Source: a phage
Sequence record: PV357172.2
DNA: 64,000 nt
Direction: 5' to 3' (one strand)
Positions 4,162 to 42,513 of the stretch are shown here, piece by piece; position 1 is the stretch's first letter, and each line of letters starts with the position of its first letter. The notes below the pieces were generated by a model, which ran no database searches, was not told where the DNA came from, and was given only the letters and a program-made list of their open reading frames with translations. The translations under genes and the position numbers were made by a program.

Positions 4162-5109
4162 ATGTTTAATACTAAAAATATGAAAGAACTGACTTCTGAG
4201 CAGAAAGTAATTCGTACTATTAAACGTTGGGGTATTGGTGCTGTAGTTGGTTTAGCAGGTTTAATCCTAGCTTTTAATTCATATACTGTTGTTCAAGACG
4301 GTACTGTTAAAACCCAGACTTTCCTGGGTAAAGTTGACCCTAGCCCAGTATTACCCGGCTTTCATATTGTAAATCCTTTTGCTTCTTTCGATACTTTTAG
4401 TACTAAAGATATTGCCCTAAAATTAGATAAACTTCAGGTTCCTAGCCAGGATAAGTTTAAATCCACTGTTGACCTGACTGTTATGTTGCAGTTTGATGGT
4501 TCTAAGGCACCAATTAACCGTATTAACGCAGGTACTCAGGATCAGGCGTTAGACAAGTATGTAACTGAAAAATTACTGTCTACTATTCGTGAGTTTGGTA
4601 AGTCTGTACCTAAAGCACAAGATTTGTTTGATGCTAAAATTCAGGCTCAATTGCAAACTGCAATTCAACAGGAAGTTGAAGAGTATGCACGCCCATATGG
4701 TTACACAGTTAAGCAGGTATTCCTTCAGGATATTACTTTGCCACCGGTAATCATGGAACAGGTACAGAATACCAAAGTTCGTGAAGAGCAAGTTAATGCT
4801 GCGAAAGCTGAACTGGCCCGCGTTGAACAAGAAGCGCAGCAAAAGGTTAAACAAGCAGAAGCAGACCGTGAAGCTCGCAACAACCAAGCTATTGCTAATG
4901 AACGTGACGCAGATGCTAAACTGTACGCAGCTAAGAAAGAAGCTGAAGCTAACGCCGCATTGCAACGTACCATTACTCCTGAGATGATTCGCTGGAAGCA
5001 ACTGGAAGTTGAAATGCTTCGTGCTGAAAAATACCAAGGTGGTGTACCGCAAACAGTAGTGGGAACTGGTTACGATGGCCAGATGATCATGGATATGCGT
5101 AATAAGTAA
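4162..5109 (+). CDS. SPFH/band-7 (prohibitin-like) membrane protein
   Basis: N-terminal TM segment then long Ala/Glu/Gln-rich coiled coil; overall SPFH-like architecture. Confidence 0.55.
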   Translation: MFNTKNMKELTSEQKVIRTIKRWGIGAVVGLAGLILAFNSYTVVQDGTVKTQTFLGKVDPSPVLPGFHIVNPFASFDTFSTKDIALKLDKLQVPSQDKFKSTVDLTVMLQFDGSKAPINRINAGTQDQALDKYVTEKLLSTIREFGKSVPKAQDLFDAKIQAQLQTAIQQEVEEYARPYGYTVKQVFLQDITLPPVIMEQVQNTKVREEQVNAAKAELARVEQEAQQKVKQAEADREARNNQAIANERDADAKLYAAKKEAEANAALQRTITPEMIRWKQLEVEMLRAEKYQGGVPQTVVGTGYDGQMIMDMRNK

Positions 5110-5133
5110 TATCCGCATGTAATCTCTGAAGTA

Positions 5134-5168
5134 AGCCCTGTGTTCCCTGGAGAGCGCAGGGCTTTTCT
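5134..5168 (+). terminator. rho-independent terminator
   Basis: GCCCTG...CAGGGC hairpin followed by TTTT. Confidence 0.6.
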
Positions 5169-5314
5169 GTATTTAAGGCAAAAGAAAAAGCCCATAAGTT
5201 ATTCAACTAAGGTCTTTAGTATTTAATTCTTTAGAATCATATAATATTATTGCAGCAACAACGTGCTAACCTTAAGTGCCCTGCAATTTTCCTCTAAAAA
5301 GTTAAAAAATTCGA

Positions 5315-30778: not shown

Positions 30779-31383
30779 TGACTTTATATGCACAACAACC
30801 TGTTCAAGTAGTACCAGACCATGAATTAAATACATGGGATTATGATTTTAAAGACTTAACTGCCACTGTACAGTTCAAATCTATGAAATTAACCTTTGCG
30901 CACACTGATATTAAAGCCTGTAAAGATCTTGAGCATAAATTAAAAGAAGCTCGTAAGATCTTTGGCAAGGCTCGGATTCCAGCTGATAACCTTATTAACG
31001 CATTAATAGATGCTGGTTATAAACTCGTAAAGACTGAGGTGAACCGCCCTAGTACTCCTGTGACTGTTGGAGGTTCCTGGACCAAAAGTGGTATCGCATT
31101 TAATCCTAAAATAACGTCGGATTTGCACAATGTTCCATGTGGTGGCGTTATAGAAAATAATTCCTCATATCGAGTTGGTGAAGATTACGGCCCTTCTGTA
31201 CAGTTGCAACATACTCAAGAAGCTTTTGAATCTGATATGCGAAGCGTAGCACCTGTGGATACTGAAGGTTTTAGAAGTCCCAGCTATGTTACTCACTTTA
31301 ATAATCTTAGGCCTGGGAGTATAAATGATACTATCCTTGAGGCGTTGGGAGCTGCTCTTAACGAAGATAAGAGAGGTAGTTAA
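30778..31383 (+). CDS. hypothetical protein (201 aa)
   Basis: Track ORF. Confidence 0.5.
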   Translation: MTLYAQQPVQVVPDHELNTWDYDFKDLTATVQFKSMKLTFAHTDIKACKDLEHKLKEARKIFGKARIPADNLINALIDAGYKLVKTEVNRPSTPVTVGGSWTKSGIAFNPKITSDLHNVPCGGVIENNSSYRVGEDYGPSVQLQHTQEAFESDMRSVAPVDTEGFRSPSYVTHFNNLRPGSINDTILEALGAALNEDKRGS

Positions 31384-31460
31384 TCCTCTAATACATGAGC
31401 CTCTACAGAGGCTCTAAAATAAAAAGAAGGTCGTCCAGACCTTAAAAACGGGAGATAATA

Positions 31461-32345
31461 ATGTATAACTTTAAAGATAAACTAAGACAAAATGCTGGTA
31501 AAACAAAACCTAAAGAGAACAATAATGTTCCTAATGCCAAAGTATTACCATTTCCAGAACTATCCCAAGAAGAAAAAGATAAGTTAGCATTTATGTTTGA
31601 TGCACTTATAGGGCTAAATGGACGTTTATATTCCTCTCTCAATATTAATGAGAAACGTTTAGTAGAGATGTTTTGTAAACGTTACCAAGTTACTTCAAAG
31701 GGCAATTCTTATAAAGAAGGTGAGAAAGCATTTACAGTCTTAAAGATTAGCGCATATGCACATCGTTTCTTAGTTTATGGGTTGCAAATGGAATACTTTA
31801 CTATCCCATCATTTAGCTCTTTCCATATCTTTGAAGATGAACGAATGAATATTGATGATCTCTACGGGGATACATACAAATACTCAGGAAGTCCATTCCA
31901 CGATGCATTAAGGAGTTACCCATCTAACTATTTACCCATTAGAGCATCTCAAGGTAAAGCTAGCATCTTTGCTGTATACTCAGGATCTAAAGCATCGGAT
32001 CTAGAAACTTATATATTTAAAGAGCGTAAATCTGTGCTTCCAGATGAAGCATTGTATAACAATCCATTGCTTCCAGAAAAAGAACCAGAAAAAATTGATG
32101 TAACCCCACCAATACCGTCTGACTCTCAGTATTTAATTTATGAGAAACAAGTTAAGTTATCCCTAGAAATTGGATTAGTTACACCGCTTGCTGCAGCATT
32201 CATAAATAGATATCTAGAAATTCCTGATGAGTTCCACACACGTTATAATACGAATATTCAGATAACGGATGAACTAATTGCGTTAGCAAAAGATACACCT
32301 ACAGATACTGAGGCGTATCAAAAAGCATACCAAGAGTTACTATAA
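31461..32345 (+). CDS. hypothetical protein (294 aa)
   Basis: Track ORF with GGGAG SD; followed by a hairpin at about 32355-32385. Confidence 0.55.
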   Translation: MYNFKDKLRQNAGKTKPKENNNVPNAKVLPFPELSQEEKDKLAFMFDALIGLNGRLYSSLNINEKRLVEMFCKRYQVTSKGNSYKEGEKAFTVLKISAYAHRFLVYGLQMEYFTIPSFSSFHIFEDERMNIDDLYGDTYKYSGSPFHDALRSYPSNYLPIRASQGKASIFAVYSGSKASDLETYIFKERKSVLPDEALYNNPLLPEKEPEKIDVTPPIPSDSQYLIYEKQVKLSLEIGLVTPLAAAFINRYLEIPDEFHTRYNTNIQITDELIALAKDTPTDTEAYQKAYQELL

Positions 32346-32792
32346 TACTCTGCATGTCTCGGTGCACAATACCTGTACCGAGACTCAAATACAAACTCTC
32401 GTTGACAGATAGCTAAATGTATGTTATCATAACTCTATGAGTTAATAGAATTAACCATTTAGAGTTGCCACACAGAAGGTGTGGTGGTTCAGTAATTTAA
32501 AATTACTAACTTGTAGCGGAGGATACGGAGCGACAGGACAAGTTAATAAGTAATTTAATATAAATTACTAGAAACATCACGAGACCTTCTGGCGGGGGGC
32601 AAAGCTCTATATGAGAACCCTGGGGGATCTTATATTTAAAATAAAAGTAAAACTTTTGACCACATAATTTACATTCAAGATGATACACCTGTTGCCGCTC
32701 ATCTGCTAGGATGGCACAACACTTTCTTCTAGACTCCTAAGTTTCTAGGAAATTGATAAGCACAAATTCTAGAGATCACACAAAAATATTCA

Positions 32793-33529
32793 TCGGATTT
32801 GCACATATTCTAGGGCAGTTTTCACTGTTCCTAGAAACTCCAGCAATAGGCGGTTAATACAGGGCGGTTATAGGGAGGGCGGTTATTTCTAGGAGACATT
32901 TTTTGAAAACACATTTCCAGAAATTACTGTCGGATTTGCACATTGTGTTTCTAGAAATTTATGGTCGGATTTGCACAAACGCCTAAGTTTTTAGGAACTC
33001 TTACTCTCCTGAAAATAGCAGCATTATTTCGGGCCGAAGGCCCATGATTGCCTGAGTTTTTAGAGCCACAAGAATTTTCACTTGTCAAGCTATTTTGCCC
33101 CATTTTGCTAATAAAATTTTACTTTTTCTGCACCTATCTCAAATTTCCCCAAATTATCTCAACTCTTCCCCAAAATCCCCGCAAATCAGGTGCTCCGCAC
33201 CAATCCTGCGCCTACTTCCTTCTAGTCCCAAAATTTCTCTCACTCTCTCATCCTCTCCTCAAACCTATACAATCACACACCCTCTCATCGAAGTCATAAA
33301 AATCTTGTCGGATTCGCACATCTCAACACATGTCGGATTTGCACATACTCTAGCTAATCCCACAGGATTCGAACGCAGTTCGTGATTGCTGGAGTTTTTG
33401 GGAAAATTCATTGTCGGATTTGCACACTATAAAAATTTTTCGGGTCGGATTTGCACACTACCAAAAATTGTCGGATTCGCACATACACGCCCACGCGTAA
33501 TCCATGGGGGCAAATGTCGGTTTTGCACA
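32793..33529. repeat. dispersed array of 10 copies of GTCGGATTTGCACA in non-coding DNA
   Basis: Copies near 32793, 32928, 32964, 33307, 33332, 33413, 33444, 33470, 33516 (two as GTCGGATTCGCACA, one GTCGGTTTTGCACA); irregular spacing. Confidence 0.8.
33100..33300 (+). repeat. about 200-nt pyrimidine-rich (C/T) tract with strand asymmetry
   Basis: Plus strand almost lacks G across this interval. Confidence 0.7.
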
Positions 33530-33735: not shown

Positions 33736-33762
33736 CGGAAGTGAGAAACACTGCTATTTAAG

Positions 33763-33872
33763 TTATCCACAGACTTATTAACAGCACGATTTGACTTGAC
33801 AGAATCCTAGCCATTTTGAGGCGTTATCCACAGACTTATCCCCAGGTTATTCTACTGTATAAATATACAGTA
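33763..33872. repeat. left arm of inverted repeat carrying DnaA boxes
   Basis: TTATCCACAGACTTAT twice (33763, 33824) followed by CTGTATAAATATACAG palindrome. Confidence 0.7.
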
Positions 33873-34851: not shown

Positions 34852-35064
34852 TTATAACACTCCACGAAAGGCCGCGTAAAAGGTGGCAAAATGTTTAACC
34901 GTCTCAGCGATCACGTTGCCCCGTTTATCGAATTTCTTTTCTGTAACACGAAAGGCGTTTTTGTTGCGTGCTACATATTCGATTTTACAATCTGGACGCT
35001 CGAACGTGTTAACGTCCACCAGCTTAAAGCCTTTCGAACGTGTAAGGGAAACGTTACGGATCAT
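34852..35064 (-). CDS. hypothetical basic protein (70 aa)
   Basis: AGGAG SD; translationally coupled. Confidence 0.5.
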   Translation of the reverse strand: MIRNVSLTRSKGFKLVDVNTFERPDCKIEYVARNKNAFRVTEKKFDKRGNVIAETVKHFATFYAAFRGVL

Positions 35065-35066
35065 TT

Positions 35067-35255
35067 TTATTCTCCTTTACTAGTCATGCAGCCCAGCAGA
35101 TAAGAAAAAACGGCGATACCCGCGCCAATAATAACCATTGGTTTTGTATTTACTAAACCACAATAGGAATCCTGAATACCATAAGCGGTGGCGAAAAGAG
35201 TCAGAATAGCGCCCAAGATACCTGCTAGAATAGCTCGAAAAATAACCATTTTCAT
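35067..35255 (-). CDS. small membrane protein (63 aa)
   Basis: ATG 35255 after TTTCTAGGAGAATGAAA; two hydrophobic helices. Confidence 0.45.
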   Translation of the reverse strand: MKMVIFRAILAGILGAILTLFATAYGIQDSYCGLVNTKPMVIIGAGIAVFSYLLGCMTSKGE

Positions 35256-35296
35256 TCTCCTAGAAATTAGAGGCGAAAGTAACGCCCAGTTATTGG

Positions 35297-35524
35297 TTAC
35301 ATTAAAACGATTTTGGCGGCTTGTTTTTTGGTGCAATGTTCCGCTTTCAATTCATCCAGCAAAAATCCAGCTGTTTGCTGATCAATCTTGTCATTATTGT
35401 AAAGCTCCTGAATGGTAACATAAGTTTTAGCAATCCCAAATTCAGAAACCATAACGCTTACAATAGCGGGAACGGATACCCATTCCATACCATTAAAAAT
35501 TGCAGAAGATGATGAATGTACCAT
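35297..35524 (-). CDS. hypothetical protein (75 aa)
   Basis: AGGAGG SD after TTTCTAGG motif; first gene of the minus-strand cassette. Confidence 0.5.
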   Translation of the reverse strand: MVHSSSSAIFNGMEWVSVPAIVSVMVSEFGIAKTYVTIQELYNNDKIDQQTAGFLLDELKAEHCTKKQAAKIVLM

Positions 35525-35646
35525 TTTAACGCCTCCTAGAAATCAGGGAAAATTTTCAATCCACCGTTTTGGTGTAAAGGCATTATAACAAAAAAGGCCA
35601 CCATAAAAGGCGACCTTTACAAAACTTTACATTAGGTTAATTATTA

Positions 35647-35760
35647 CTCGCTTTCGGTGCTAACGGTAAAAGTAGAAATATCAATACCTTTCACCATTTC
35701 CAGCATTGCCGCCACCTGGCCGCCGCGTTGGGTCTTTACTTTAATATTACCCCACAGCGT
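35647..35760 (-). pseudogene. 38-codon gene remnant (3' end only)
   Basis: Open frame between stops encoding ...TLWGNIKVKTQRGGQVAAMLEMVKGIDISTFTVSTESE with no start or RBS; a hairpin and T-run follow on the minus strand. Confidence 0.3.
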
Positions 35761-35825
35761 TTAGCTCGTTAGAAAGCGATTTAGGCCGCTTATTTTGGGC
35801 ATCATTATAGTATGCTTCCCATTTA

Positions 35826-35935
35826 CCCTGTATATTTATACAGTGGAATAACCTGTGGATAAGTCTGTGTAAAAGTGCTGTAAAGCCTTCCTATTGTGTC
35901 AATCAAATTTACAAAATGTATAAACCTGTGGATAA
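35826..35935. repeat. right arm of inverted repeat carrying DnaA boxes
   Basis: Reverse complement of the left arm: CTGTATATTTATACAG palindrome and TGTGGATAA twice (35854, 35927). Confidence 0.7.
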
Positions 35936-36126
35936 CTTAAATGATAGTGGTTCTCACTAACTAATTTATACAGTTATTATATAACAAAATATAGTTAGTT
36001 GGCTAATAGGATTTTAAAGTGATTATGAGTCTGCTAAGTAAACCTGAAAAACTCATTAGGTAGTCTGCTAATGATTTTGATATAATATAATAGAGATTAA
36101 ACTAATAACATAAGGAAACAATAACA

Positions 36127-36645
36127 ATGGGTCTATTTAAAGATATAGATTATTCGCTTGCTAATGATAACTTTTATTATGATGAAACATCCCCATCATT
36201 TCTAAGATGGAAAGTACAGAAAGGTAATAGTAAGGTGGGGGATATTGCAGGGCATTATAGTAACACAGGTTACTATCGAGTAAAGTTAGCAGGCGAACAA
36301 TACGCAGTGCATAGAATAATATGGGTATTATTTAATGGTGAGATTGATAGCAATCTAACAATCGATCATAATGATCGTAACCGTGCTAATAATAACATTA
36401 ATAATCTTCGCTTAGTAGATCATAAGCAGAATACGAATAACAAGAAAGATTATAAGCGTGCTAATAAGTTGCCTAAGCATATCTATTATAATGGTTCTAG
36501 AGTTGATAATAACGGAAGAAACTATTTGCGCGCTATAGTTAAAGATCCTACTAGTAACAAAAGTGTTAGTAAATCAGGTTATGATTTACAAGAGTTATTA
36601 TTATGGGTAGAAACTAAAAAAGCTGAATTTGGGATTGTCAATTAA
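36127..36645 (+). CDS. HNH homing endonuclease
   Basis: HRIIWVLFNGEIDSNLTIDHNDRN...NNLRLVDHKQN HNH motif. Confidence 0.8.
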   Translation: MGLFKDIDYSLANDNFYYDETSPSFLRWKVQKGNSKVGDIAGHYSNTGYYRVKLAGEQYAVHRIIWVLFNGEIDSNLTIDHNDRNRANNNINNLRLVDHKQNTNNKKDYKRANKLPKHIYYNGSRVDNNGRNYLRAIVKDPTSNKSVSKSGYDLQELLLWVETKKAEFGIVN

Positions 36646-37033
36646 TTTATTTTATAAATTAACGCAATGCCACTTGATTTTAAAAAGTCAATACCTTTTC
36701 CAACTATTTTTCAATTTTGCTTTTGTTAAATATTTGTTAAATCGAAAATGGGCCGCCTAAAACGCCCTAGAAAGCGGTAAAATTTTCAGGTATGCCATTG
36801 CATTGCCTACCCTCGTTTATCGCTACCACGAGCTTTCTAGATTTTGTCAATATCCCCAAAGCAAATATAAATGAAAAAATTACTTGCCTATCTGCTTGGT
36901 TTTATGGTATTCACGCGCCCGTTCCTTTTAATTTAGGTGAGCGCCGCACGCCGTCCGGTGAAACTGTATTAGCCATATTGCTAATAATTTTGGTATAATA
37001 TAATAACCAAATGAAACTAATAGGAGAATATTA

Positions 37034-37375
37034 ATGATTGAGCTAACAAAAGATATTGATTTAGAAACTGTGCTAGATAATCTTTACTATGATGAAACTA
37101 GTCCCAGTTGCCTACGGTGGAAAGTATCCCGCCCCGGTTGCGCCCTTCATGGGGTAGCAGGTACTAAAAGAAAGGATGGTTACTGGTCTGTACAGCTCAA
37201 TAAAGAGCGTTACCTAGCGCATCGTATCGTGTGGTTATTATTTAATTATAAAATAGATAGCAAACTAGTAATTGATCATATTGATCGTAACCCTAGTAAT
37301 AATTTTATTGATAACTTACGGTTAGTAACTCAAGCCGAAAACAACCAAAATAAGGGAGGCTATAGAAAGGCGTAA
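37034..37375 (+). CDS. HNH homing endonuclease (short paralog)
   Basis: HRIVWLLFNYKIDSKLVIDHIDRN...DNLRLVTQAEN; upstream leader similar to that of 36127. Confidence 0.75.
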   Translation: MIELTKDIDLETVLDNLYYDETSPSCLRWKVSRPGCALHGVAGTKRKDGYWSVQLNKERYLAHRIVWLLFNYKIDSKLVIDHIDRNPSNNFIDNLRLVTQAENNQNKGGYRKA

Positions 37376-37616
37376 AACTTACGTTTCTTTACAAAAATAA
37401 GGTTGCGCCCTTTTCGGGAATCTCCTATTATTTATCACGTAGGGCGGCAATGACGAACTACACGGCGGGAAGTTTACCGCCGCGCTCTTTAAAAATTGGG
37501 TACATCTTAAAGCCTATCGGCGGTAAACTTATTCATTATAAGGAATCGACGATATGAAACAAACTTTATTGATCACTGGCAAGCCTAGCAAGGCACTAGA
37601 TAGCAAAACAAAAAAT

Positions 37617-37650
37617 TTGTTGACAGTAGCGCAAAATTCTGTAAAATGGC
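37617..37650 (+). promoter_or_regulatory. near-consensus sigma70 promoter (TTGACA, about 17 bp, TAAAAT)
   Basis: Lies inside track ORF 37554-37757, which I regard as non-coding; a second TTGACA-type promoter sits at about 37745-37775. Confidence 0.5.
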
Positions 37651-37986
37651 GATTCAAGCAATATTTGCAAGGTCGCCAGCAAGGTTTAGAAATGATCTGG
37701 CGAAACATTATGATTGACCTGAAGGAAAATCATAAAAAATCTCAAAAAATTGTTTGACAGCCTAGCCGATAGGTTTTAAGATGTACCCAGTTCGAAAAGA
37801 GCGATAACTTGATAAAATTTGACGGTCGGCACTTACCATAATGTGCCCCGCCCCCTAACGGGATATAGCGGCCTACGTGGAGTTCTTTAAATTGATTATA
37901 TTGGCGAGCGGATTGTTACTTATTACCTGCTGTTACTTTCTAGCAGGTAATGCGGAACAATCCCCAAATAACTAGGAGTTTATATT

Positions 37987-38238
37987 ATGAAAAACGTTAT
38001 TACCGCGCCTAAAATTGGTCAATCCGTTTTCATCCCTTTCGTTACTAAAACGGATGAATTAACCGGAAAAGCCGAGCGCATCAAAGGCGCAGCGCTTATG
38101 CCATTTGATACAATCGACGCGGTATACGCTGAAACGGAACGAAGTAACAACGGAAAAACTATTTACAGCGTTCGGGTTAAATCCGGCGACGTTGTAAAGG
38201 TTGTTCAACGCAACGAAAAATGGGAAGCTGTATTGTAA
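37987..38238 (+). CDS. hypothetical pre-early-region protein (83 aa)
   Basis: AGGAG SD; followed by hairpin ATCCCCC...GGGGGAT. Confidence 0.5.
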   Translation: MKNVITAPKIGQSVFIPFVTKTDELTGKAERIKGAALMPFDTIDAVYAETERSNNGKTIYSVRVKSGDVVKVVQRNEKWEAVL

Positions 38239-38336
38239 TTTAGTGTTAACTTTATATCCCCCAGTAGTTCGGGGGATATAACGATTAACATTATGTTAAT
38301 CTAATCCCTTAAATTAAACTAATAGGAGTTTTTACC

Positions 38337-38744
38337 ATGACTAACGCAAAAACCGCAAAATTCGCATGGAATGAAGAAAACACTCAGAAAGCTGTTACCA
38401 TGTACCAGCAGTTAATCAACGAAAACGGTTTAGATTTTGCAAATAGCGACGGCCTGAAAGAGATTGCAAAAGCAGTAGGCGCGGCTTCTCCTGTGTCTGT
38501 TCGCTCAAAATTGACCAGTGCAAAAGCCTATCAAAAAAGCGATAAGCCGCGTAAAGTTGGCGGCGGTAGTTCAATCCGTAAAGCGCATTATGTGCGAGTA
38601 ATTGCAAAACACGCTATCGATTCCGGCATTATCAAAGACGCCGATGATCTGGCAAGCCTTGAAAGTGCTAAACTGGAAACGCTGGACGCAGTAGCGCAAC
38701 TGTTAGGCGTTGCCGATGAAGTAAAACAGGCCGCAGGTGAATAA
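38337..38744 (+). CDS. hypothetical pre-early-region protein (135 aa)
   Basis: AGGAG SD; followed by hairpin GCCCCCT...AGGGGGC. Confidence 0.5.
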   Translation: MTNAKTAKFAWNEENTQKAVTMYQQLINENGLDFANSDGLKEIAKAVGAASPVSVRSKLTSAKAYQKSDKPRKVGGGSSIRKAHYVRVIAKHAIDSGIIKDADDLASLESAKLETLDAVAQLLGVADEVKQAAGE

Positions 38745-38832
38745 TTATATACCTTGCCCCCTTTAGTGAGGGGGCAATAATATAACTGTTTAGCGATAGT
38801 TGTTATCTTCCCTTAAATCAGGAGTTTTAAAA

Positions 38833-39030
38833 ATGATTTTCTTTCCTACTGAGTCATTAATTTTAGGCTTGTTTATTATGGCGGCCTCGTTATTGTTCGC
38901 TTATTTTCAAAATGATTTAGATTCATATTATTTTAAACGTAAATCTAAATTAGCAAAACGTTTAGGTCTGCTTTGTTTTATCGCTGCCGTTGCTTGTGGT
39001 GTTAGTTCTAGCCTAGTGCCTTTAAATTAA
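38833..39030 (+). CDS. small membrane protein
   Basis: ATG 38833 after AGGAG; hydrophobic. Confidence 0.45.
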   Translation: MIFFPTESLILGLFIMAASLLFAYFQNDLDSYYFKRKSKLAKRLGLLCFIAAVACGVSSSLVPLN

Positions 39031-39120
39031 TGTTGCAAATTATAACGCCTATTGTTCGAGGCGTTATATTTGGCAATATTGCCGTTATTAACCTAATCCC
39101 TTTAATGGAGCTTTATTACT

Positions 39121-40791
39121 ATGATTATTTCCGCAGAAAAACAAACCGTTATCCTGAAAATGGCCGCTGACTTTAATTTCTATGGTAAACGTCTGCGCGC
39201 TACTAAACTGGAGGTCTGCGACGATATATCAAAAGCAGTCTACGATACAACGAAACATTCCACCGCCATTTGTGATTGGCTGGAAGCAAACAAACCAGCG
39301 AAACCAAAAGCGGCAAAAGTAGCAAAAGCCATTAAAAACGATGAGCGCCCCGAAGCGGCGGGGATTGTTTCTAGCACGGTTGAACAGTGGGAAGTAAAAC
39401 AGGGTAAACGCTTTATTATTACGTCGATTCAGAATAATACTTTCCCGCATAAAAACTTTTTAGCCTCGCTTGAACAATTTGCTAAATATATCGGCGCTGA
39501 TTTGCTTGTTTCTAAGTATATTTATAATAAAAACGGTTTTCAAAATGGCGAGGGCGCGGATGGAATAAAGTATGATTCCGCGTTCGATAAATATATTTGC
39601 AGCAAAAACGTGTTTTTACATAACCGCCGTTTTGCTTTCATGGCTGAAATTAATGTTTTGCCAACCGCAGATTATCCGCTTTCTGGATTCGCAGAAACTG
39701 CTACCGCGCTCAATATTGAAGGGCTGGCAATTGGTCACGCTAAAATTACCGCCGAAAGCGTGCCAGCTTTAAAAGGTGAAGTAGTGCGCCGTATGTATTC
39801 AACCGGAACGGCAACGCTCAAAAACTACATTCAGCAGAAAGCAGGACAAAAGGCCGAGGCGCTGCATAACTTCGGTGCGCTTATTGTTGAGTTCGATGAT
39901 GATGGGGAATTTTTTGTTCGCCAGCTTGAAACAATGGACGAAAGCGGGGTGTTTTATGATCTGAATGTTTGCGCTACTCCTGCCGGATGCTATGAAACAT
40001 CGGGGCATGTTTTAGGCTTGCAGTATGGCGATATTCACGCCGAAAAATTAGATGAGGAGTGCGCCGCCGCATCTTGGGGGCATGGTGATACCTATGGGCT
40101 AGTAGATATTCTTAAACCAAAATATCAGTTTGTGCATGACGTGCATGATTTTACATCGCGCAATCATCATAACCGCGCATCCGGTGTATTCCTAGCGAAA
40201 CAGTATGCCGCCGGACGTGATAAAGTTCTGGATGATCTTATCGATACCGGTCGCGTGCTGGAATCAATGGAACGTGATTTTAGTCAAACAATCATTGTTG
40301 AATCGAATCACGATTTGGCGCTATCCCGTTGGCTTGATGATCGTAATGCTAACATTAAGGACGATCCCGCCAACGCCGAACTATATCACCGCCTGAATGC
40401 TGCGATTTACGGAGCTATTGCAGAAAAAGACGACACCTTCAACGTGCTAGATTATGCGCTGCGCAAGGTTGCAGGTTGTGAATTTAACGCCATTTTCCTA
40501 ACGACTGACCAATCTTTCAAGATTGCAGGTATTGAATGCGGCGTACACGGTCACAATGGCATTAACGGGAGCCGTGGCAATCCGAAACAATTTAAGAAAT
40601 TGGGCAAATTAAACACCGGACACACTCATACCGCCAGCATTTACGGCGGCGTTTATACCGCTGGCGTGGCTGGTAGTCTGGATATGGGTTACAACGTTGG
40701 CGCGTCAAGCTGGACACAAACGCATTTAATTACCTATGCAAACGGTCAACGCACTTTGATTGACTTTAAAAACGGTAAATTCTTTGCGTAA
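39121..40791 (+). CDS. A1: A1-like pre-early protein, Mre11/SbcD-type metallophosphatase nuclease (556 aa)
   Basis: Metallophosphatase motifs GDIHA, ESNHD, GHNG and GHTHT; length equals T5 A1 as I recall it. Confidence 0.65.
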   Translation: MIISAEKQTVILKMAADFNFYGKRLRATKLEVCDDISKAVYDTTKHSTAICDWLEANKPAKPKAAKVAKAIKNDERPEAAGIVSSTVEQWEVKQGKRFIITSIQNNTFPHKNFLASLEQFAKYIGADLLVSKYIYNKNGFQNGEGADGIKYDSAFDKYICSKNVFLHNRRFAFMAEINVLPTADYPLSGFAETATALNIEGLAIGHAKITAESVPALKGEVVRRMYSTGTATLKNYIQQKAGQKAEALHNFGALIVEFDDDGEFFVRQLETMDESGVFYDLNVCATPAGCYETSGHVLGLQYGDIHAEKLDEECAAASWGHGDTYGLVDILKPKYQFVHDVHDFTSRNHHNRASGVFLAKQYAAGRDKVLDDLIDTGRVLESMERDFSQTIIVESNHDLALSRWLDDRNANIKDDPANAELYHRLNAAIYGAIAEKDDTFNVLDYALRKVAGCEFNAIFLTTDQSFKIAGIECGVHGHNGINGSRGNPKQFKKLGKLNTGHTHTASIYGGVYTAGVAGSLDMGYNVGASSWTQTHLITYANGQRTLIDFKNGKFFA

Positions 40792-40847
40792 TTAAATTAT
40801 TCCCCTAGCGGCTTGAAATATAGCCGCTATTATAGGAGCTAAATTAA

Positions 40848-41105
40848 ATGAAAGTTACATTACCCAAAACATTGGACGAAAAAGTATTTATTTCACCGGA
40901 TGAAATGGAATCTGATAAAGTTTACAGCTTCGGGCCTATCCTAGCCGCCAAAACTAATACGGATGGTATTATTTCCGTCGATTCCCGTGATAACGATATT
41001 GTTCCTTTTGATGATGATGGCGCTTTTTATGAGTGGCTAAGCGATAATAATTTACCCGTAAACGGTGAATTAACGCCATACCAGATGCAGATTATTATCA
41101 AATAA
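40848..41105 (+). CDS. hypothetical protein (85 aa)
   Basis: Track ORF with AGGAG SD. Confidence 0.5.
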   Translation: MKVTLPKTLDEKVFISPDEMESDKVYSFGPILAAKTNTDGIISVDSRDNDIVPFDDDGAFYEWLSDNNLPVNGELTPYQMQIIIK

Positions 41106-42351: not shown

Positions 42352-42513
42352 TAATTAAAGTTGAAATAGTCACGGTGTGTAATGATAACATGCCGTGACT
42401 ATTAGCTTGCTAAGTACCGGGCGGTAATGAGACTCATTCTCATCTGGGGGGCCACTGCACCCACCCACGCGTACGTAATCCAAAGAATTTGGCAAAAGTC
42501 ATTTTAGTGCTAA

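What the first reader, a model, noticed from the sequence alone, without database searches (positions are those of the whole stretch)
37485..37800. Near-consensus TTGACA promoters bracketed by a 38-bp inverted repeat
GCTCTTTAAAAATTGGGTACATCTTAAAGCCTATCGGC (37485-37522) is mirrored by its imperfect reverse complement at 37760-37800. Between them lies TTGACA-17-TAAAAT (37617-37650), and a second TTGACA-type promoter overlaps the right arm. Track ORF 37554-37757 has no RBS and is probably not coding. This looks like a strong pre-early promoter module with a flanking hairpin, possibly an attenuator or processing site.
Basis: seen in the sequence. Interest (0 to 1): 0.45.

Follow-up and report, generated by a model that had tools for sequence, protein, structure and literature searches.

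The report
T5 pre-early promoters, hdi, bracketing repeat
This is the well-known strong pre-early promoter pair of a T5-like phage sitting in and just after a real gene (the cell-division inhibitor hdi), and the flanking inverted repeat is a named but unexplained T5 repeat whose two arms change together across phage genera, which suggests they pair in the messenger RNA.

Summary
The window is a T5-like phage (Demerecviridae) in reverse orientation to the T5 reference. A 39-nt inverted repeat (37483-37521 / 37765-37803, 34/39 complementary) brackets two near-consensus sigma-70 promoters. These match T5 P_H22 (TTGACA-16-TAAAAT, 37620-37647) and P_D/E20 (TTGACA-17-TAAGAT, 37754-37782), both characterised experimentally in T5. 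It is hdi (T5.008), a proven FtsZ inhibitor, with an AAGGA ribosome-binding site and a coding substitution pattern. The repeat is almost certainly the IRA/IRA' pair of T5 'Repeat Region 1', which has no assigned function.

New here: the bracket is conserved as an architecture in five Demerecviridae lineages while its sequence is replaced in both arms together. The right arm always forms the spacer, -10 and start region of a promoter abutting the last bracketed stop codon. One-sided changes mostly give G:U on the sense strand. The most likely role is a long-range RNA helix on transcripts from upstream that closes off the toxic small-gene cassette, probably as an RNase III processing or stability element. 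This is inferred, not shown. The features are already known; interest is moderate.

The parts
37403..37431 (+). Putative third promoter 'P3' (TTGCGC-17-TATTAT, preceded by CTTTACAAAAATAAGG). It would transcribe the leader, the left arm and hdi. Inferred, not experimentally known.
   Evidence: Hexamers are conserved while the spacer is free: diversity is 0.035 (-35), 0.272 (spacer) and 0.000 (-10) in 36 sequences. The same TTGNNN-16/17-TATTAT/TAATAT, with unrelated spacers, occurs in Klebsiella phage Kpn13-P1, DT57C, Sw2, Erwinia phage KEY and Pectobacterium phage My1. The scan missed it because the -35 matches only 3/6.
37437..37482 (+). Structured 5' leader (GUAG..CUAC and CGGCGG..CCGCCG hairpins, or a 5'-terminal CGUAGGGCGG/CCGCCRCG stem).
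   Evidence: Folds. Window 37426-37500 is 97% identical to Klebsiella phage Boggle although the flanks are unalignable (H88).
37450..37557 (+). T5.009-like 35-codon ORF overlapping the left arm; its stop overlaps the hdi ATG (ATGA). Doubtful as a protein gene.
   Evidence: The ATG is lost in Sw2 and a stop follows 13 codons in Kpn13-P1. No PHROG family matches.
37470..37530 (+). Local perfect 13-bp inverted repeat (37470-37482 / 37518-37530) that encloses the left arm in a 35-nt loop. It is an alternative to the long-range helix. Present in Tequintavirus and Epseptimavirus only.
   Evidence: I5. Absent in Kpn13-P1, KEY and My1.
37483..37521 (+). Left arm of the bracket repeat (core 37494-37521). 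Probably IRA/IRA' of T5 Repeat Region 1.
   Evidence: Least variable segment of the region (diversity 0.037). Literature.
37540..37544 (+). Shine-Dalgarno AAGGA of hdi, 9 nt before the ATG.
   Evidence: Shivani annotates an RBS at the same place. The T5 gene is expressed from its natural RBS.
37554..37757 (+). hdi (T5.008 homologue), 67 aa, FtsZ-targeting host division inhibitor.
   Evidence: 82% identity to T5.008. phrog_4718, E 6e-37, full length. Codon-position diversity 0.099/0.073/0.206. PMC10714956.
37609..37647 (+). Promoter P_H22 inside hdi: A-tract, -35 at 37620-37625, -10 at 37642-37647. The start is expected near 37654-37656.
   Evidence: T5 annotation 4799-4873 maps to window 37599-37673. 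Primer extension in T5. Hexamers 0.025, spacer 0.162.
37743..37782 (+). Promoter P_D/E20: A-tract, -35 at 37754-37759 (contains the hdi TGA stop at 37755-37757), -10 at 37777-37782. The start is expected near 37789.
   Evidence: states that P_D/E20 overlaps hdi partially. The -35 and -10 are invariant or nearly so (0.009, 0.000).
37765..37803 (+). Right arm of the bracket repeat (core 37765-37792). It equals the spacer, -10 and discriminator/start of P_D/E20.
   Evidence: The part of the spacer inside the arm has diversity 0.051, against 0.158 for the part outside it and 0.16-0.27 for the other two promoters' spacers.
37910..37963 (+). 22-bp hairpin in the leader of the T5.007 homologue, directly before its RBS.
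   Evidence: I2. 7 of 12 consensus pairs keep pairing through changes on both sides across lineages.
37987..38238 (+). T5.007 homologue, first gene of the operon driven by P_H22 and P_D/E20 (followed by A2 at 38337-38744 and A1 at 39121-40791).

Best explanation
The locus is the T5-type pre-early control region. It holds hdi with its ribosome-binding site, P_H22 embedded in the hdi coding sequence, and P_D/E20, whose -35 hexamer contains the hdi stop codon. The two promoters drive the T5.007-A2-A1 operon. This part is shown by homology plus published experiments. The 39-nt repeat is the conserved T5 IRA/IRA' pair.

Proposed mechanism (inferred): hdi cannot be transcribed from P_H22 or P_D/E20, because both start inside or after it. 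It is made from an upstream promoter: the conserved TTGCGC-17-TATTAT at 37403-37431, and/or the promoters of the HNH genes. On those sense transcripts the left arm (in the 5' leader, ending 32 nt before the ATG) pairs with the right arm (starting 7 nt after the stop). This gives a 28-39 bp helix that closes the whole cassette into a loop.

A helix of that length is a substrate for host RNase III (established knowledge for E. coli). Cleavage would detach the toxic hdi message from the essential downstream operon and leave it with paired ends. Alternatively, the fold-back itself limits translation or decay of the toxin message. Transcripts from P_H22 and P_D/E20 lack the left arm and are unaffected. 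The right arm therefore carries two codes: core promoter in DNA and helix strand in RNA.
For: Identity:
- The window aligns at 89% to T5 4479-5093.
- P-H22 is annotated at the homologous site.
- Supporting literature.

Selection on the repeat:
- In 22 distinct arm pairs from five lineages (Tequintavirus, Epseptimavirus, Klebsiella phages, Erwinia KEY group, Pectobacterium My1), 90% of 616 cells are Watson-Crick in register, against 17-31% when slid.
- 27 of 28 positions show at least 2 pair types.
- Arms of one lineage match 25-27/28, but arms of different lineages match only 3-13/28.
- 0 of 2000 arm-swap shuffles reach the observed value.
- Small concerted events occur: TAAGAT to TAAAAT in both arms of DT57C, +1 nt in both arms of fp01, and A to G in both arms of L218 versus KEY.

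Constant geometry despite different cargo (hdi; another ORF plus hdi; unrelated small ORFs):
- The left arm ends 18-35 nt before the first ATG.
- The right arm starts 6-15 nt after the last stop and lies just after a TTGACA/TTGCAA -35.

RNA rather than DNA:
- Non-Watson-Crick cells are 40 G:U on the sense strand, against 9 A:C.
- In the 17-sequence RNAalifold set, one-sided changes give 21 G:U and 1 A:C. The long-range stem is the consensus structure.
- The minimum-energy fold contains the stem in all five lineages tested, with z-scores of -3.2 to -8.9.

Extra constraint beyond promoter function:
- The arm part of the P_D/E20 spacer is 3-5 times less variable than other spacers.
- The left arm, with no other known role, is as conserved as second codon positions of T5.007.
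Against: - No transcript data were available. Co-transcription of both arms rests on an unverified promoter (P3) or on read-through from the HNH-gene promoters.
- Counted as independent events rather than cells, the G:U bias is only about 10-13 against 5. DT57C, KEY and My1 each carry an A:C-type mismatch, so the bias is suggestive, not significant.
- Concerted change of two arms is also what gene conversion or template switching between repeats produces.
- The perfect 13-bp local hairpin around the left arm could trap it kinetically in Tequintavirus.
- T5 lacking hdi (and hence P_H22) is viable, so the element is not essential.
- No RNase III work on T5 was found.
Confidence: 0.5

Rival explanations
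1. DNA-level operator pair. Each arm binds the same phage or host protein (for instance A2, or the A1-RNA polymerase complex that shuts off pre-early transcription). The two sites loop the DNA, occluding the P_D/E20 core and enclosing P_H22.
For: The right arm sits exactly over the spacer, -10 and start of P_D/E20, a classical repressor position. A1-dependent shut-off of pre-early promoters is known, but its mechanism is not. Lineage-specific sequence in both arms could reflect co-evolution with a binding protein.
Against: Only two copies of the core exist in 64 kb, although shut-off affects all pre-early promoters. A 1-nt insertion in the middle of both arms (fp01) and near-exclusive transition/G:U-type differences between arms are not expected for a protein site. 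Five complete sequence replacements would need five changes of protein specificity.
Confidence: 0.15
2. No function of its own. The left arm is a relic of an inverted duplication of the P_D/E20 core. It is kept similar to the selected promoter copy by gene conversion or replication template switching between the arms.
For: Concerted single-base and indel changes in both arms are the hallmark of conversion. The right arm is under selection as a promoter anyway. CitS1 carries a hybrid pair (Tequintavirus-type left arm, Epseptimavirus-type right arm) and still exists.
Against: The bracket persists across two subfamilies with total sequence turnover and constant geometry around different cargo. 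The promoter spacer inside the arm is itself unusually constrained. The G:U strand bias is not predicted by this explanation. An unselected 39-bp inverted repeat would be expected to decay or be deleted.
Confidence: 0.15
3. Transcription attenuator or terminator. The helix stops polymerases coming from upstream before they run over P_D/E20.
For: The right arm ends where the next transcription unit starts. In other lineages it is followed within 0-15 nt by the moderately U-rich CGCUCUUUAAMAAUUUGG.
Against: The terminator scan finds nothing here. The 'loop' is 217-430 nt, far too long for hairpin formation in the RNA exit channel on the time scale of elongation. In the window the arm is followed by AUAACUUGAUAAAA, which is not a U-run.
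Confidence: 0.07
4. Boundary repeats of a mobile or invertible cassette. Recombination between the arms flips or exchanges the hdi/P_H22 segment.
For: The cargo between the arms differs among phages. HNH homing endonuclease genes lie next door.
Against: All loci with recoverable flanks are colinear and none carries the segment inverted. No recombinase is adjacent. Cassette exchange needs only flanking homology, not inverted homology.
Confidence: 0.03

Closest known systems
Bacteriophage T5 pre-early promoters P_H22 and P_D/E20 (Bujard laboratory promoter set; T5 4690-4873 in NC_005859)
   Same: Same position, same hexamers (T5: TTGACA-16-TAAAAT and TTGACA-17-TAAGAT), same A-tract upstream, and the same relation to hdi.
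   Different: This is another phage (closest is VEc33, 96.7%; T5 89%) with a few spacer substitutions. The RefSeq feature 'P-D/E 20' (4338-4664) does not cover the TTGACA-TAAGAT site. Assignment of that name rests and on my recollection of the published sequence.
T5 'Repeat Region 1' inverted repeats IRA/IRA' (Wang et al. 2005; Davison 2015, 2020)
   Same: This is the only long inverted pair with both arms inside the region homologous to T5 4682-5310. [quoted passage not shown]
   Different: Davison treats the region as untranslated and discusses it only in relation to the injection stop signal. The link to hdi and the promoter core, and the covariation, are not mentioned in the text I could read. 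The exact published IRA coordinates could not be checked.
RNase III processing stalks: long-range helices flanking 16S and 23S rRNA in the precursor, and RNase III sites between T7 early genes
   Same: Sequences on both sides of a functional unit pair over 25-40 bp and loop out the unit. The helix has G:U pairs and a small internal loop (window: 8 bp, a 3-nt mismatch, then 28 bp). It separates neighbouring units of one transcript.
   Different: Cleavage has not been shown. The looped-out unit is an mRNA for a small toxic protein. The 3' strand doubles as a core promoter, which has no counterpart in rRNA or T7.
hok/sok-type fold-back inhibition (5'-3' long-range pairing that keeps a toxin mRNA compact, stable and poorly translated)
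   Same: A toxic small protein gene is enclosed by a long-range 5'-3' helix. An alternative local hairpin in the leader (37470-37530) recalls metastable hok structures.
   Different: No antisense RNA or mok-like reading frame was identified. The 3' arm is not at a transcript end. No sequence relationship exists. This comparison comes from memory and was not tested.

Membership tests
Sigma-70 promoter, orthologue of T5 P_H22 | -35 and -10 hexamers with 16-18 nt spacing | tested here: met
   TTGACA-16-TAAAAT, 11/12.
Sigma-70 promoter, orthologue of T5 P_H22 | Homologous position to the T5 feature, with hexamers conserved more than the spacer | tested here: met
   T5 4799-4873 maps to window 37599-37673. 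Diversity is 0.025/0.162/0.025.
Sigma-70 promoter, orthologue of T5 P_H22 | Transcript 5' end downstream of the -10 early in infection | not testable with these tools
   Shown for T5 itself by primer extension (PMC7472727), not for this phage.
Sigma-70 promoter, orthologue of T5 P_D/E20 | Hexamers and spacing; partial overlap with hdi | tested here: met
   TTGACA-17-TAAGAT. The TGA stop of hdi lies inside the -35. states the partial overlap with hdi. The hexamers are invariant or nearly so.
Protein-coding gene hdi (T5.008) | Sequence homology to the characterised protein over its full length | tested here: met
   55/67 identical, E 1e-40. phrog_4718 covers 1-67 of 67.
Protein-coding gene hdi (T5.008) | Coding pattern of substitution and a ribosome-binding site | tested here: met
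   Third-position diversity is 0.206, against 0.099 and 0.073. AAGGA lies 9 nt upstream.
T5 IRA/IRA' (Repeat Region 1) | Both arms lie within the region homologous to T5 4682-5310; conserved in T5-like phages | tested here: met
   The arms map to T5 about 4669-4707 and 4951-4989. They are present in all Tequintavirus and Epseptimavirus loci examined.
T5 IRA/IRA' (Repeat Region 1) | Identity with the published IRA coordinates of Wang et al. 2005 | not testable with these tools
   The paper is not held.
Long-range RNA helix / RNase III processing stalk | At least 20 bp of continuous or near-continuous helix predicted in the transcript | tested here: met
   28-39 bp in the minimum-energy fold of five lineages and in the RNAalifold consensus.
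Long-range RNA helix / RNase III processing stalk | Compensatory evolution that keeps pairing | tested here: met
   27/28 positions have at least 2 Watson-Crick types; 0/2000 shuffles reach the observed value. Caveat: gene conversion gives the same pattern.
Long-range RNA helix / RNase III processing stalk | Strand-specific tolerance of G:U | tested here: inconclusive
   40 against 9 cells and 21 against 1, but only roughly 10-13 against 5 independent events.
Long-range RNA helix / RNase III processing stalk | Both arms on one transcript; cleavage dependent on rnc | not testable with these tools
   The upstream promoter P3 is inferred only. No T5 RNase III literature was found.
Intrinsic terminator / attenuator | Short-loop G+C-rich hairpin followed by a U-run | tested here: not met
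   No terminator-like site at 37440-37830. The loop is 243 nt and the tail is AUAACUUGAU.
Invertible or mobile cassette | Both orientations, or empty sites, found among relatives; recombinase nearby | tested here: not met
   All relatives are colinear. Only HNH endonuclease genes are nearby.
Known RNA family (Rfam) | Match to a curated covariance model | tested here: not met
   No match at E up to 1 in 35000-41000.

The most novel reading that the evidence does not exclude
The bracket repeat is a dual-coded element conserved throughout Demerecviridae. Its 3' arm is the core of one of the strongest known E. coli promoters. In transcripts from upstream, the same arm is one strand of a long-range helix that closes off a cassette of toxic host-takeover genes. 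The helix acts as an RNase III cut site or a fold-back lock, insulating toxin expression from the essential A2-A1 operon. This would explain a repeat (IRA/IRA') that has been catalogued since 2005 without a function.
Probability: 0.4. Interest if true: 0.55.

Novelty: already known. Interest (0 to 1): 0.35.

Why it matters
The promoters and the gene are textbook T5 features, so the finding as written adds nothing new, and one of its claims (non-coding ORF) is wrong.

What could matter is the repeat. It is one of the conserved but unexplained repeats of the first-step-transfer DNA. The comparative pattern found here has three parts: both arms are replaced together in five lineages, the geometry around variable cargo is constant, and the right arm coincides with a core promoter. 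That pattern turns 'conserved repeat' into a testable hypothesis about how T5-like phages handle the messenger RNA of toxic pre-early genes.

It also bears on practical work. P_H22 and P_D/E20 make this locus unclonable, and hdi deletions also remove P_H22 and shorten the loop enclosed by the helix.

Tried and rejected
- A 14-mer scan of IMG/VR returned mostly chance matches and was abandoned. Protein-anchored locus retrieval was used instead together with GenBank phage records.
- MAFFT could not align the arm cores of distant lineages. Pair counts were therefore made on ungapped cores anchored at the inner ends instead of with the count of structure pairs.
- Rfam gave nothing.
- A minus-strand promoter using the left arm's mirrored -10 was considered and rejected. 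No acceptable -35 exists at 16-18 nt in the window or in KEY (read).
- I first thought the DT57C cargo gene was homologous to the first Klebsiella cargo gene. tblastn does not support this.
- Literature searches for the promoter sequence, for T5 RNase III work and for T5 transcript maps found nothing bearing on the repeat.
- Davison 2015 could not be opened.

Full report
**What the window is.** The region around the finding matches 447-461 phage records, nearly all T5-like Demerecviridae. The closest is Escherichia phage VEc33 at 96.7%; T5 itself is at 89%. The window runs opposite to the T5 reference: tRNA genes lie at 4-15 kb, and A1 (39121-40791), A2 and dmp lie on the + strand. Near the finding, window position x corresponds to T5 position 42472 - x.

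**Checking the observation.**
- The inverted repeat is real. Its arms are 37483-37521 and 37765-37803, 39 nt, 34/39 complementary, 243 nt apart.
- Its ungapped score is 24, against 9.9 +/- 1.2 (maximum 14) in 200 dinucleotide shuffles.
- The first promoter is TTGACA-16-TAAAAT at 37620-37647. The second is TTGACA-17-TAAGAT at 37754-37782. These are the best and among the best sites in 36000-40000.
- The two promoters share an upstream A-tract (D1).
- The -10 and start region of the second promoter lie in the right arm.

**What the pieces are.**
- In the T5 RefSeq record, the homologue of ORF 37554-37757 is T5.008, and promoter 'P-H 22' is annotated inside it.
- T5.008 was renamed Hdi. It kills E. 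coli when expressed from its natural ribosome-binding site, resistance maps to ftsZ, it dissolves Z rings during infection, and it gives T5 a competitive advantage (PMC10714956).
- The window protein is 82% identical to Hdi over all 67 residues and matches phrog_4718 end to end.
- Among 36 distinct relatives, its codon positions have diversities of 0.099, 0.073 and 0.206.
- AAGGA lies 9 nt before the ATG.
- P_H22 transcripts were seen by primer extension as pre-early RNAs (PMC7472727).
- A 2026 preprint states that P_H22 and P_D/E20 are experimentally characterised and overlap hdi fully and partially. It adds that their strength prevents cloning of the locus.
- The second promoter, whose -35 TTGACA contains the hdi stop codon TGA, fits that description of P_D/E20. 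The RefSeq coordinates for 'P-D/E 20' (4338-4664) do not cover it and look misplaced.
[quoted passage not shown] The pair studied here is the only long pair with both arms in that interval, so it is almost certainly IRA/IRA'.

**How hdi is transcribed.** Both known promoters start inside or after hdi, so hdi needs an upstream promoter. Directly upstream lies TTGCGC-17-TATTAT (37403-37431), behind the same kind of A-rich block. In the 36-sequence alignment, the -35 and -10 have diversities of 0.035 and 0.000 while the spacer has 0.272. The hexamers recur with unrelated spacers in Klebsiella phages, DT57C, Sw2, Erwinia phage KEY and Pectobacterium phage My1. T5's strongest promoters also use TTGC-type -35 hexamers (my own knowledge). 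I call this promoter P3; it is inferred, not demonstrated. Its leader (37437-37482) is strongly structured and is 97% identical to a Klebsiella phage whose flanks no longer align. The two HNH genes upstream also carry their own extended -10 promoters. The left arm is therefore very probably transcribed in the sense direction.

**The repeat in relatives.** I collected about 100 loci (59 distinct regions) from GenBank phages, IMG/VR and metagenomes.
- Within Tequintavirus and Epseptimavirus, both arm cores are the least variable segments of the region (0.035-0.037).
- The arms change together. GGGTAC becomes GGGAAC in both arms of Epseptimavirus. The -10 TAAGAT becomes TAAAAT, with the matching change in the left arm, in DT57C. 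One extra base appears at the same place in both arms of fp01.
- Klebsiella phages have a 28-nt pair of quite different sequence (TTGGGATTCTATAAAAAGCGTTATCGGC). Erwinia phage KEY and a metagenomic relative have a 25-nt pair (AATCTGGTRTCYATTATGCGCCGCT), again with an A-to-G change in both arms. My1, from another subfamily, has a 28-nt pair (AACTAGATAGTRACCTGATAGGCTTRCT).
- On ungapped 28-nt cores of 22 distinct arm pairs, 90% of cells are Watson-Crick in register, against 17-31% when slid.
- 27 of 28 positions show two or more pair types.
- Arms of one lineage match 25-27/28, and arms of different lineages match 3-13/28.
- No arm-swap shuffle of 2000 reaches the observed value.

**Geometry.**
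- In every lineage the right arm follows a TTGACA or TTGCAA hexamer and contains a -10-like hexamer (TAAGAT, TAAAAT, TATTAT, CATAAT, TACTAT). It is always the spacer, -10 and start region of a promoter.
- That promoter abuts the stop codon of the last bracketed ORF. The left arm ends 18-35 nt before the first ATG.
- The cargo differs: hdi alone (window, T5), another small ORF plus hdi (chee24, fp01, saus132, smaug, Klebsiella phages), an unrelated ORF alone (DT57C), or other small ORFs (KEY, My1).
- The part of the P_D/E20 spacer that lies in the arm has diversity 0.051. The part outside it has 0.158, and the spacers of P_H22 and P3 have 0.162 and 0.272. The right arm is thus constrained beyond what a promoter needs.

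**RNA or DNA?**
- Sense-strand RNAs from the presumed P3 start to just past the right arm fold with the long-range helix in the minimum-energy structure. This holds in the window, Kpn13-P1, DT57C, KEY and My1, with z-scores of -8.9, -3.9, -6.6, -3.2 and -4.1.
- RNAalifold on 17 Tequintavirus and Epseptimavirus sequences returns the helix as consensus. One-sided changes give G:U in 21 cells and A:C in 1.
- Over all lineages, non-Watson-Crick cells are 40 G:U on the sense strand, 9 A:C and 12 other.
- The old, fixed differences between arms are all of the G:U type. The A:C type occurs in single lineages.
- Counted as events, the ratio is only about 10-13 to 5, so this is suggestive rather than conclusive.
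- A helix of 28-39 bp is a substrate for E. coli RNase III (established knowledge). If it forms, cleavage is the expected outcome.
- The local perfect 13-bp hairpin around the left arm (37470-37530) is an alternative fold limited to Tequintavirus and Epseptimavirus.

**Rivals.**
- An operator pair with DNA looping fits the right arm's position over the promoter core and the unexplained A1-dependent shut-off. It fits poorly with a 1-nt insertion in both arms, the transition-only differences, and the absence of further copies in 64 kb.
- Pure homogenisation by gene conversion explains the concerted changes. It does not explain the persistence of the bracket across subfamilies, the extra constraint on the spacer, or the strand bias.
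- A terminator is not supported.
- An invertible or mobile cassette is not supported, because all relatives are colinear.

**Verdict.** The comparative evidence assembled here is the only new element. It makes the long-range RNA helix the best-supported mechanism, at about even odds. hdi deletion mutants are viable, so any role is modulatory.

Noticed in passing
window 37403-37482: Conserved promoter-like TTGCGC-17-TATTAT with a highly conserved structured leader. Window 37426-37500 is 97% identical to Klebsiella phage Boggle although the surrounding sequence no longer aligns. It is not annotated in T5.
   Followed up: partly
window 37450-37557: The T5.009-like ORF (35 codons, stop overlapping the hdi ATG as ATGA) is probably not a conserved protein. 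Its ATG is missing in Sw2, and a stop follows codon 13 in Kpn13-P1. The nucleotide conservation looks non-coding.
   Followed up: partly
window 37483-37497; L155 1953-1969; L160 3093-3110; L221 about 1396-1413; L222 about 812-829 and 1292-1308: The motif CGCTCTTTAAMAATTTGG recurs just after hairpins or 10-30 nt after promoter -10 elements. It is in direct orientation in Epseptimavirus, Klebsiella phages, KEY and My1, but forms the inverted outer part of the repeat in Tequintavirus. Its function is unknown; possibilities include a sigma-70 pause-like AAAAAT/AACAAT element, an RNase E site, or a weak U-tract.
   Followed up: no
window 37910-37963: A 22-bp hairpin lies immediately upstream of the RBS of the T5.007 homologue. 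It is present with different sequences in all lineages, and 7 of 12 consensus pairs show compensatory changes. It is a conserved leader structure of the A2-A1 operon.
   Followed up: partly
window 37034-37375 and 36127-36645: There are two HNH endonuclease genes. The second (113 aa, truncated relative to phrog_99) is absent from T5 and VEc33 but present in Shivani and SHSML-45. Each gene is preceded by a copy of the same TGn-extended -10 promoter repeat (36055-36092 / 36968-37005).
   Followed up: partly
L001 (NC_005859) 4338-4664: The RefSeq feature 'promoter P-D/E 20' covers the T5.007 leader and gene start. It does not cover the TTGACA-17-TAAGAT site at T5 4690-4718 that overlaps hdi. A 2026 preprint says P_D/E20 partially overlaps hdi, so the annotation coordinates look wrong.
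   Followed up: partly
window 37754-37759: The stop codon of hdi (TGA) is embedded in the -35 hexamer TTGACA of P_D/E20. The same overlap is kept in Klebsiella phage Kpn13-P1 (GTT TGA CAA).
   Followed up: yes
L163 (Citrobacter phage CitS1) 1603-1642 / 1891-1929: This phage carries a hybrid bracket: a Tequintavirus-type left arm with an Epseptimavirus-type right arm, giving 5 extra mismatches. This implies a recombination breakpoint inside the cassette.
   Followed up: no
window 31109-33484 and 33740-33870 / 35828-35958: Injection-stop-signal-type repeats are present: eight copies of GTCGGATTTGCACA, and the long IRC/IRD-type inverted repeats carrying TTATCCACA DnaA boxes. These flank the rightward pre-early genes, as described for T5.
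   Followed up: no
search hits H2, H3 (OR846838, OR848616): Short unannotated GenBank records labelled 'Listeria phage' (and others labelled Campylobacter) are 92% identical to this enterobacterial T5-like region. They are probably mislabelled or contaminated records.
   Followed up: no
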